Source: the human T2T-CHM13v2.0 reference genome, Homo sapiens. From it: a stretch of DNA of 64,000 bases. Below are positions 26,870 through 28,650 of this stretch, piece by piece. The notes beneath the pieces are model-generated. The model ran no database searches. It was not told where the DNA came from and saw only the letters and a list, made by a program, of their open reading frames with translations. The stretch spans positions 14,176,001-14,240,000 of the forward strand of contig CP068257.2 of the NCBI GenBank assembly GCA_009914755.4, given 5' to 3'. Every line of letters begins with the position of its first letter. Within the stretch, counting starts at the first letter, position 1. The position numbers and the translations under genes are program-made.

Positions 26870-28650
26870 CAGGTATTTTTAAAAGATTTAAGAGTATGTG
26901 CTTAAACAGTTTAATAGTGCATGTGCGTTGGAACTTTTAAAAATAAGTCATATGGATACAGGGCTGCTGCTTAGGGATGTGCAGGTTATACAGTTGTGCA
27001 AGGATGCCATTGTTCTCCACTGTTCTCTTTTCTAATGTTTATATTAATGATTTCCTTCTGCAGAAACCTGAAAATACTACAAGCCAACCACTTTCTAATC
27101 AGCGAGTTGTAGAGGTGGCGATCCCTCATGTAGGGAAATTTATGATTGAATCAAAGGAGGGGGGGTATGATGACGAGGTACCTTTTACAGCCCTCTGCAC
27201 CATTGCTACTTAACTTTTGCTATTTAATACAAATACTTTGGGCATGCCTGCACCCTCATACTTAATGTCTATTGCCACATAACATACAGCTTTGCCCCCT
27301 CATAGTCCAAAATTACTTTACCAATTATTAACAGAACTTTGAATTTCAAATGAAAATTTAAGTAGAAAACTTATGGAATTTGTCAAAAGAATTTTCTGTT
27401 TGTGGAGTTAATTCTTTTATGCAGAAATAGTACCAGTTTACTTCCAGGTTGGCAGATTACAATAAGATTTGTTTAATTAGTACAAAAATTTTTTGCATTT
27501 AAAAATAATTTTTTATATTCCATTCTTGTTTTACTGGAATTACTTATAATCCTTTTCCCACTATCTCCTGCCAGAAAATCCCACAGCATGATTGCAGGAT
27601 GGATAATTGATATTTTTGCTTCTACAGCCTCTCCATGTGACTGTGAGTGGAGTAAGTCATCACCGTTACTGAGTGCCTACCGTTAATAGGACCTCCATGT
27701 TTATTCTTATCTCTTCACTGTTAATTCTCATTTACTTAGTTTTCCAACAGTATGGAGGCATTTTTGTTTTTCATGATTTAGTTCTTTGGAATCCAGATGA
27801 AAATGATCTATTGTCTTATTCTATCAGATGATTTTCTCCCCTTTTCCACTTTTCTCTTGAGACACTTAATATTACTCTTTTTGAGGAACGGCCAGTAAAG
27901 CTGTTTTTGAACAGGAACACAGAGGAGGCCGTAACTATTGGGTAGTGGGGGAGGGGGGTGATTTGGAAAAATGCTTGTTGGATTCTAGTTTTTGTGGGTT
28001 TGTATAAGAATTGCATTTATGTTAAGTTTTTTTTCACGTAACTTTTTTTCTGACTTACTCCAATGTTACTATCATGCTAGAGTTAATCACCAAAGTCAGA
28101 AGTGTCATAAAGACATATCACTGTACCAGTGTAAGAAATCACACGCCATAAAGAGAATAAGCAGATTTGTGAGATAAACTGGTCAGAGAGTTTTCTCAAG
28201 CAGGTGTTAGATATATTGCAATTCTCAGTATATAATCCAAAGTAAATACAATGAGTAATAGGTTCAGTGAATCAGAGGTGACGGAGGCAATCTCTTGATT
28301 TCTGTAAGATAGCTTCATAGGGCTTTGAGTAATTTCACTTTGCAGATATTTTAAAATGTAAACAGCTAAAAATAATAAGCTATTATGAAAACAAAAAAAA
28401 TGCTTAAGTATTTGTACTTAATGGCTCTACATTGTTCTAGTTAACTATTTTATAAACATGCTGGCTCTTGAAAATTATGGGAACTGGCATGTTTTTAATA
28501 AACCTATCAATTTATTGATTAAGCAGTTAAGTACTTGTTTTAGGATGTGCCCTCTCTCATTTAAAAAAGTTGAATTGTGATTAATCATTTAACACTATCT
28601 TTTTTGCAAGTGCTTATGTGACAGAGTTGTGTGTTTTGTCGTTTTTTAAA
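26870..28650. repeat. Unit 1 of an old tandem intronic segmental duplication. Contains the 114-nt candidate exon.
   Basis: Block 26890-27008 is about 90% identical to 28670-28768. Block 28205-28330 is about 70-75% identical to 31430-31560. The order of blocks is collinear. Boundaries approximate. Confidence 0.6.
27064..27177 (+). CDS. Candidate in-frame 114-nt (38 aa) cassette exon in the large intron: KPENTTSQPLSNQRVVEVAIPHVGKFMIESKEGGYDDE. Possible counterpart of the second USP25 muscle-isoform exon.
   Basis: Good acceptor atgatttccttctgcag|AAACC and donor GACGAG|gtacctttt. No stop. Phase 0/0 is compatible with the flanking phase-0 exons. It lies inside track ORF 26977..27213 in the same frame. 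Its status as a real exon is inferred. Confidence 0.4.

What the first reader, a model, noticed from the sequence alone, without database searches (positions are those of the whole stretch)
27064..27177. 114-nt in-frame candidate cassette exon, a possible second tissue-specific USP28 exon
The segment has a clean polypyrimidine tract, AG acceptor, GT donor and 38 codons with no stop. Phase 0/0 is compatible with skipping or inclusion between the flanking phase-0 exons. The paralogue USP25 has a muscle isoform carrying two extra exons. From memory these add 70 residues in total, which equals 38 + 32, exactly the sizes of this exon (38 aa) and the 96-nt exon at 29178-29273 (32 aa). If so, USP28 would have an equivalent two-exon module. 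As I recall, only the 96-nt exon is commonly described for USP28, so this one may be unannotated or rarely used.
Basis: partly seen in the sequence, partly recalled or inferred. Interest (0 to 1): 0.55.

Follow-up and report, generated by a model that had tools for sequence, protein, structure and literature searches.

The report
Known muscle exon of USP25
The 114-base segment is a real, evolutionarily conserved alternative exon, but the gene is USP25 rather than USP28, and the exon is one of the two published exons (19a and 19b) that make the muscle form USP25m, so nothing here is new.

Summary
The sequence features are exactly as described: cag|AAACCT…GACGAG|gtacct at 27064-27177, 38 open codons, phase 0/0. 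On their own these signals mean little, because 492 comparable AG/open-frame/GT segments lie on this strand of the window.

The exon is shown to be real by homology. A mammal and a frog both carry a 114-nt orthologue with the same splice sites. Substitutions fall mainly on third codon positions. Frog and fish DNA match this 21.7-kb intron only at this exon and at the 96-nt exon. Annotated beaver and frog USP25 models splice the exon in.

The gene was misidentified. The window's exons are 100% identical to human USP25 (PDB 6H4J, 5O71, 6HEM) and only about 35-80% identical to USP28. Alu repeats mark the window as primate.

This is published as exons 19a and 19b of USP25m. The peptide is needed for MyBPC1 rescue and contributes to TUG cleavage.

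USP28 does have a homologous 19a-like block (frog USP28), and a tissue-specific USP28 exon 19a is also published.

Verdict: real feature, already known, low interest.

The parts
27064..27177 (+). 114-nt phase-0/0 cassette exon of USP25, 38 aa (KPENTTSQPLSNQRVVEVAIPHVGKFMIESKEGGYDDE). By genomic order it is the published 'exon 19a', the first half of the 70-aa USP25m insert.
   Evidence: sequence and open frame; 114-nt orthologues with the same AG and GT in a mammal (L001/L002) and a frog (L003), with mostly synonymous change. P0009 (frog) joins exon 19 to it and P0001 (beaver USP25-like) joins it to the 96-nt exon; reading frame intact in many vertebrates down to lamprey.
27036..27063 (+). 3' splice region: candidate branch point CTAAT with its A at about -29, pyrimidine-rich stretch tttccttct, and acceptor cag.
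   Evidence: The acceptor AG sits at the same position in L001 and L003. The branch-point assignment is inference from the consensus only.
27178..27183 (+). Weak 5' splice site gtacct (no G at +5, C at +4).
   Evidence: log-odds 4.2. This and the 96-nt exon's site (3.7) are the two weakest of the 10 donors scored here; the others score 5.8-11.2. The PWM frequencies are approximate and from memory, so only the ranking is used. GTAC is conserved in the mammal and frog orthologues.
29178..29273 (+). 96-nt phase-0/0 cassette exon, 32 aa (IMMTPNMQGIIMAIGKSRSVYDRCGPEAGFFK). By genomic order it is 'exon 19b', the second half of the USP25m insert. On its own it accounts for the 1087-aa form (1055 + 32).
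   Evidence: sequence. P0001, P0002 and P0003 join it to exon 20; 13 synonymous against 6 non-synonymous codon changes versus the teleost-like contig L004..
21815..21957 (+). Upstream constitutive exon (exon 19), ending ...SPETVLQS at residue 779 of the 1055-aa form.
   Evidence: exact chain; identical to PDB 6HEM residues 3-34.
43671..43849 (+). Downstream constitutive exon (exon 20), starting AIKLEYARL...
   Evidence: In PDB 6HEM and 6H4K, exon 19 is joined directly to this exon, which is the isoform without the insert.

Best explanation
The window is the 3' half of primate (almost certainly human) USP25. Segment 27064-27177 is the first of two consecutive cassette exons in the 21.7-kb intron between exon 19 (ends 21957) and exon 20 (starts 43671).

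Three splicing outcomes follow:
- Skipping both exons gives the ubiquitous 1055-aa USP25a.
- Including only the 96-nt exon adds 32 aa, giving 1087 aa.
- Including both adds 70 aa after Ser779 and gives USP25m (1125 aa by arithmetic), the isoform reported in skeletal muscle, heart and adipocytes.

The insert lies at the N-terminal edge of the C-terminal domain, outside the catalytic core. According to the literature it acts as a substrate-recognition element. It is needed for binding and rescue of MyBPC1 and contributes to cleavage of TUG in GLUT4 vesicle release.

What is shown here: gene identity, exon structure, frame compatibility, conservation, and splicing in orthologous gene models. What comes from the literature: tissue specificity and function. 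What is inferred: regulated inclusion depends on the two unusually weak GTAC donors. The 19a/19b labelling is assigned by genomic order.
For: Gene identity:
- 70/70 identity to USP25 PDB chains.
- 100% identity to the USP25 C-terminal-domain structures on both sides of the insertion point, with a clean 70-aa gap.
- a single AG/GT-compatible exon chain reproduces the USP25a C-terminal 467 aa.
- five Alu heads, so the window is primate.

Position: six exons follow the cassette pair. With 25 exons reported (PMC8262611, PMC13443329), the upstream exon is number 19, which fits the names 19a and 19b.

Splicing in orthologues: beaver USP25-like P0001 reads ...GGYDDE|IMMTPNMQ...AGFFK|AIKLEY. Frog P0009 reads ...PEAVLQM|PTDNTP...GGYDDE.

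Conservation:
- 114-nt exon with the same boundaries in a mammal and a frog. Differences at codon positions 1/2/3 are 1/3/6 for human versus the mammal over the full exon, and 3/1/8 for human versus frog over the core, codons 13-38.
- frog and fish DNA match the intron only at the two cassette exons.
- homologues occur from teleosts to lamprey with no stops or frameshifts.

Regulation: one search shows the two weakest donors of the region.
Against: No transcript or RNA-seq data can be reached with these tools. The human junctions 21957>27064 and 27177>29178, and the tissue specificity, were therefore not observed directly.

The primary paper (Valero et al. 2001) and Bosch-Comas et al. 2006 are not in the held library. 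As a result, the exact published peptide and the assignment of '19a' to the 114-nt exon were not checked letter by letter. No database protein containing the complete human 38-aa peptide joined to exon 19 was retrieved.

Flanking-intron conservation between human and the other mammal is no higher than in the rest of the intron, about 75-85%. TGCATG motifs are not enriched. No specific splicing regulator is therefore supported.
Confidence: 0.95

Rival explanations
1. One reading: a previously unannotated second tissue-specific cassette exon of USP28.
For: The window encodes a USP25/USP28-family protein. A USP28 probe does find the exons. USP28 orthologues carry a homologous 19a-like block.
Against: Per-exon identity to USP28 is only about 35-80%, against 100% to USP25. 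PDB scores favour USP25 by 10 orders of magnitude for a single 70-aa exon. The exon corresponds to a published USP25 exon.
Confidence: 0.01
2. A chance pseudo-exon: an open AG...GT segment in an intron that is never spliced in.
For: Such segments are common: 492 on this strand of the window. The donor is weak.
Against: The segment has the same length, frame and splice sites in a mammal and a frog. Substitutions favour third codon positions. Frog and fish DNA match the intron only at this exon and its partner. Orthologous annotated proteins splice it in. The homologous block is present in lamprey and in USP28.
Confidence: 0.01
3. A repeat-derived (for example Alu or other transposon) recently exonised segment specific to primates.
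For: The window contains several Alu elements.
Against: None of the Alu matches lies near 27064-27177. The exon is conserved to frog, teleosts and lamprey.
Confidence: 0.005
4. A real USP25 exon whose usage differs from the published picture, for example included on its own without the 96-nt exon to give an undescribed 1093-aa isoform.
For: Phase 0/0 makes 19a-only inclusion frame-compatible. The frog model P0009 ends by reading through the 19a donor, so it says nothing about the downstream partner.
Against: The held literature lists only three isoforms: a, b and m (PMC8262611). The only orthologous model that covers both exons joins them to each other (P0001). The teleost-like contig L004 also has them joined.
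Confidence: 0.03

Closest known systems
USP25m muscle-specific insert, exons 19a and 19b of human USP25 (Valero et al. 2001; Bosch-Comas et al. 2006; Denuc et al. 2009, PMC2679190)
   Same: Same gene. Same intron, between exon 19 and exon 20 of a 25-exon gene. Two consecutive alternative exons adding 70 residues in total, 38 + 32.
   Different: Nothing found that differs. Two points remain unchecked because the primary papers are not held: letter-by-letter identity with the published peptide, and which of the two exons carries the label 19a.
USP28 tissue-specific exon 19a (muscle, heart, brain; reported as 62 aa in PMC8534253, citing Valero et al. 2001)
   Same: It sits at the homologous position in the paralogue. 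Frog USP28 (P0066) has ...SEVEIPSVGKILVRTDTDGYNEE directly before MMLCPAMQGIILAILKARQVFDRDGPEAGLVK|AFHEEY. This parallels USP25 VEVAIPHVGKFMIESKEGGYDDE|IMMTPNMQG...FFK|AIKLEY.
   Different: It is a different gene (chr11q23 according to the literature). The N-terminal part of the block is longer and unrelated: 53 aa in P0066 and 62 aa reported for human, against 38 aa here. In USP28 the 32-aa 19b-like exon is part of the 1077-aa reference protein (my recollection of the human sequence used as probe).
Generic regulated cassette exons of vertebrate genes
   Same: Length divisible by 3, phase 0/0, splice sites weaker than those of constitutive neighbours, deep conservation.
   Different: No enriched or conserved RBFOX-type motif was found (GCATG at 27243 is GTATG in the other mammal). 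The regulator is unknown from this analysis.

Membership tests
USP25 exon 19a/19b module (USP25m insert) | Lies in the USP25 gene | tested here: met
   flanking and neighbouring exons are 100% identical to human USP25, including PDB 6H4J, 5O71, 6HEM and 6H4K.
USP25 exon 19a/19b module (USP25m insert) | Located between exon 19 and exon 20 | tested here: met
   six coding exons follow the cassette pair. With 25 exons reported, the upstream exon is number 19.
USP25 exon 19a/19b module (USP25m insert) | Two alternative exons that together add 70 residues in frame | tested here: met
   38 + 32 aa, both phase 0/0. The literature gives 70 aa.
USP25 exon 19a/19b module (USP25m insert) | Actually spliced into USP25 mRNA/protein | tested here: met
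   for orthologues only: beaver USP25-like P0001 shows the 19a|19b|20 junctions and frog P0009 shows the 19|19a junction.
USP25 exon 19a/19b module (USP25m insert) | Peptide identical to the published or UniProt USP25m insert | not testable with these tools
   Valero 2001 and Bosch-Comas 2006 are not held. The Denuc 2009 supplement text does not contain the sequence. No human USP25m protein is in the searched collection.
USP25 exon 19a/19b module (USP25m insert) | Inclusion restricted to muscle, heart and adipocytes | not testable with these tools
   Literature only.
   35-80% identity to USP28. USP25 chains E about 1e-45 with 70/70 identity, USP28 chains about 1e-35; only USP25 chains match the flanking exons.
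Conserved protein-coding cassette exon | Reading frame and splice sites conserved across species, with purifying selection | tested here: met

The most novel reading that the evidence does not exclude
The 19a+19b module may be the ancestral and originally constitutive sequence at this position, and the last roughly 21 residues of exon 19 may be a later duplicate of the 19b segment.

Two observations point this way. All 15 lamprey USP25-like isoform models carry the module, and none shows a recognisable exon-19-tail copy in the ~50 residues shown upstream of it. The exon-19 tail also resembles 19b (hhalign probability 92%; P0066 Smith-Waterman score 48 against 14 ± 3 for shuffles).

If so, the isoform switch would not just insert a loop. 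It would change which of two paralogous segments abuts the C-terminal domain, displacing the exon-19 copy. I did not find this in the papers read. It concerns mainly the neighbouring 96-nt exon, not the 114-nt exon.
Probability: 0.3. Interest if true: 0.25.

Novelty: already known. Interest (0 to 1): 0.06.

Why it matters
The exon contributes half of the 70-residue peptide that distinguishes USP25m from ubiquitous USP25. According to published work, that peptide directs the enzyme to sarcomeric substrates (MyBPC1) and contributes to insulin-triggered TUG cleavage and GLUT4 vesicle release in muscle and fat. This is established biology.

The value of this check is the correction. The window is USP25, not USP28, and the 'candidate' exon is annotated and published. 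No new USP28 exon has been discovered.

Tried and rejected
- Reading the primary papers: Valero 2001, Bosch-Comas 2006 and Habtemichael 2018 are not held.
- Looking for the peptide in the Denuc 2009 supplements: absent.
The fish ORF P0008 was used instead.
- RBFOX-type TGCATG enrichment: 34 sites observed against 34 expected. The GCATG 67 nt downstream of the donor is not conserved in the other mammal. This was dropped as a regulatory explanation.
- Pfam scan of the 70-aa insert: no family.
- AlphaFold2 on a lamprey fragment containing the module: mean pLDDT 55 and below 50 over the module. The suggested hairpin for the 19a core and helix for 19b is not relied on, and no fold search was run.
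- Similarity between the 114-nt exon and exon 19 or the 96-nt exon: none.
- Cod protein P0062 as a second USP28 example: rejected because it scores slightly better against USP25 than USP28. Only P0066 is used for the USP28 statement.

Full report
**Observation**

A pyrimidine-rich stretch and cag precede AAACCT, the segment ends GACGAG, and gtacct follows. It translates as 38 codons without a stop, KPENTTSQPLSNQRVVEVAIPHVGKFMIESKEGGYDDE. The partner segment 29178-29273 is also AG/GT-bounded and gives IMMTPNMQGIIMAIGKSRSVYDRCGPEAGFFK.

These signals are not above chance by themselves. The + strand of the window contains 492 AG-preceded, GT-followed, phase-0-open segments of 90-150 nt, and the - strand contains 268. 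The acceptor has 13 of 18 pyrimidines, which is ordinary for this gene. The donor is weak.

**Gene identity**

- USP28 gave 35-80% identity per exon.
- The USP25 C-terminal 467 residues gave essentially 100% per exon.

Two independent checks agree:
- The exon at 10818-11027 is 70/70 identical to the USP25 chains of PDB 6H4J, 6HEL and 5O71 (E about 1e-45). USP28 chains score about 1e-35.
- A query made of exon 19 + 114-nt exon + 96-nt exon + exon 20 matches the USP25 C-terminal-domain structures 6HEM and 6H4K at 100% on both sides. It leaves exactly the 70 inserted residues unmatched.

An exhaustive search over AG/GT boundaries finds a single exon chain that reproduces the USP25a C-terminus: 10818-11046, 12765-12965, 21815-21957, 43671-43849, 45669-45747, 49471-49550, 53806-53929, 57199-57394, 57706-57878. 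The 21957|43671 junction is phase 0 and falls after residue 779 of the 1055-aa protein. Five Alu 5' heads occur in the window, against 0 expected, so the source is a primate. The window is therefore USP25, almost certainly human, and not USP28.

**Is the exon real?**

Related sequences retrieved from public collections show that it is.
- A mammalian contig (L001/L002) has ctacag|AAACCT...GATGAG|gtactt, 114 nt, with 6 synonymous and 3 non-synonymous codon differences.
- The frog Engystomops contig (L003) has ctgcag|CCCACT...GATGAG|gtacca, also 114 nt.
- In the conserved core (codons 13-38), differences from frog fall 3/1/8 on codon positions 1/2/3.
- By blastn, frog and teleost-like DNA match the region between exons 19 and 20 only at the two cassette exons.
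- The annotated beaver 'USP25-like' protein P0001 reads ...KEGGYDDE|IMMTPNMQ...AGFFK|AIKLEY. The frog model P0009 reads ...PEAVLQM|PTDNTP...GGYDDE. The junctions 19|19a, 19a|19b and 19b|20 are therefore used in orthologous gene models.
- A search of 1.84 billion representative proteins with a fish ORF covering both blocks returned 67 hits. These include many genomic read-through ORFs from mammals and fishes with the frame intact.

**What it is**

Denuc et al. [quoted passage not shown] It is required for recognition and rescue of sarcomeric substrates such as MyBPC1.

PMC9556833 describes Usp25m as a splice variant in muscle and adipose cells with a 70-residue insertion. The inserted residues facilitate interaction with sarcomeric proteins and contribute to TUG cleavage.

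[quoted passage not shown] It also gives 25 exons and a 1087-aa product for the original cDNA.

The window fits this account. 38 + 32 = 70, and 1055 + 32 = 1087. Six exons follow the cassette pair, so the upstream exon is number 19 of 25. By genomic order the 114-nt exon is 19a and the 96-nt exon is 19b. That labelling is my inference, because the primary paper (Valero et al. 2001) is not held.

**How it works**

Shown here:
- The exon is in frame and phase 0/0.
- It inserts at the N-terminal edge of the crystallised C-terminal domain, outside the catalytic core.
- The 3' two-thirds, QRVVEVAIPHVGKFMIESKEGGYDDE, is the conserved part. The first 12 residues vary.

From the literature: the 70-aa peptide is a substrate-recognition element of the muscle and adipocyte isoform.

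Inferred: regulated inclusion rests on weak donors. GAG|gtacct and AAG|gtacaa are the two lowest-scoring donors of the ten scored (4.2 and 3.7 against 5.8-11.2; the PWM is approximate and from memory, so only the ranking is used). GTAC is conserved in the mammal and the frog.

I found no support for a particular regulator. TGCATG is not enriched. The downstream GCATG is not conserved in the other mammal. A structure prediction of a lamprey fragment was of too low confidence over the module to use. Pfam has no model for the insert.

**USP28**

Hymenochirus P0066 scores clearly better against USP28 than against USP25 structures (747 against 624 bits). It carries ...SEVEIPSVGKILVRTDTDGYNEE directly before MMLCPAMQGIILAILKARQVFDRDGPEAGLVK|AFHEEY. 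A review citing Valero 2001 reports a tissue-specific USP28 exon 19a (muscle, heart, brain; 62 aa) (PMC8534253). Lamprey USP25-like proteins also carry both blocks. The module is therefore at least as old as vertebrates.

**Things noticed**

The end of exon 19 resembles the 96-nt exon. The match is strong in frog USP28 (score 48 against shuffles of 14.2 ± 2.9, 0 of 5000). At profile level hhalign gives 92% probability and E = 6e-7 over 21 collinear columns. It is not significant in human USP25 alone. All 15 lamprey isoform models carry the module, and no exon-19-tail copy is recognisable in the ~50 residues shown upstream of it. One teleost-like contig has the two cassette exons fused without an intron, whereas related fishes keep the donor.

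**Verdict**

It is wrong on the gene and on novelty. This is the published USP25 exon 19a of the USP25m isoform. It is already known and of low interest.

Noticed in passing
window 21880-21951 (end of exon 19) versus 29205-29267 (96-nt exon): The last roughly 21 residues of exon 19 and the core of the 96-nt cassette exon look like paralogous copies (…ITKA…E.K.PE..L versus …IMAIGK…GPEAGF). The match is highly significant in frog USP28 P0066: LAITKTAESYERDGVEAAL versus LAILKARQVFDRDGPEAGL, score 48 against 14.2 ± 2.9, 0 of 5000 shuffles. At profile level hhalign gives 92% probability and E = 6e-7. It is not significant in human USP25 alone (785 of 5000). This suggests an old internal duplication.
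   Followed up: partly
proteins P0049 and P0085-P0098 (lamprey USP25-like models): All 15 lamprey isoform models, from four species, contain the 19a-like and 19b-like blocks directly before the exon-20 equivalent. No exon-19-tail-like copy is recognisable in the ~50 residues shown upstream. The module may therefore be ancestral and constitutive in jawless vertebrates.
   Followed up: partly
L004 991-1233 (Logan SRR28040505 contig): In this teleost-like contig the 19a-like and 19b-like sequences form one uninterrupted 243-nt exon (cag|CCTGAG...TTTAAG|gtacaa) with intron-like flanks. Closely related fish ORFs (P0021-P0025, P0028) read GGYDDE|V(gt...), so they keep the intron. This is either a lineage-specific intron loss or a partly spliced pre-mRNA captured in an RNA-seq assembly.
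   Followed up: partly
window 12154, 33809, 36136, 38860, 53160: Five Alu 5' heads with 1-3 mismatches to the consensus, all in introns. Four of the five lie on the minus strand. They identify the window as primate.
   Followed up: no
window 27009-27039 and L001 470-490: The stretch TGTTCTCTTTTCTAATGTT, 25-55 nt upstream of the 114-nt exon's acceptor, is identical in human and the other mammal. It holds a candidate branch point (CTAAT) and UCUU/CUCU-type pyrimidine motifs of the kind bound by PTB proteins. No test of function was possible.
   Followed up: no
protein P0062 (Gadus morhua): This cod USP25/28-family protein carries the module (SEVDIPNVGRITVRADADGYNEE|SMLTPAMQG...) and a USP28-like exon-20 sequence (AFHEEY). 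Its catalytic domain scores slightly better against USP25 than against USP28 structures, so its orthology is ambiguous.
   Followed up: no
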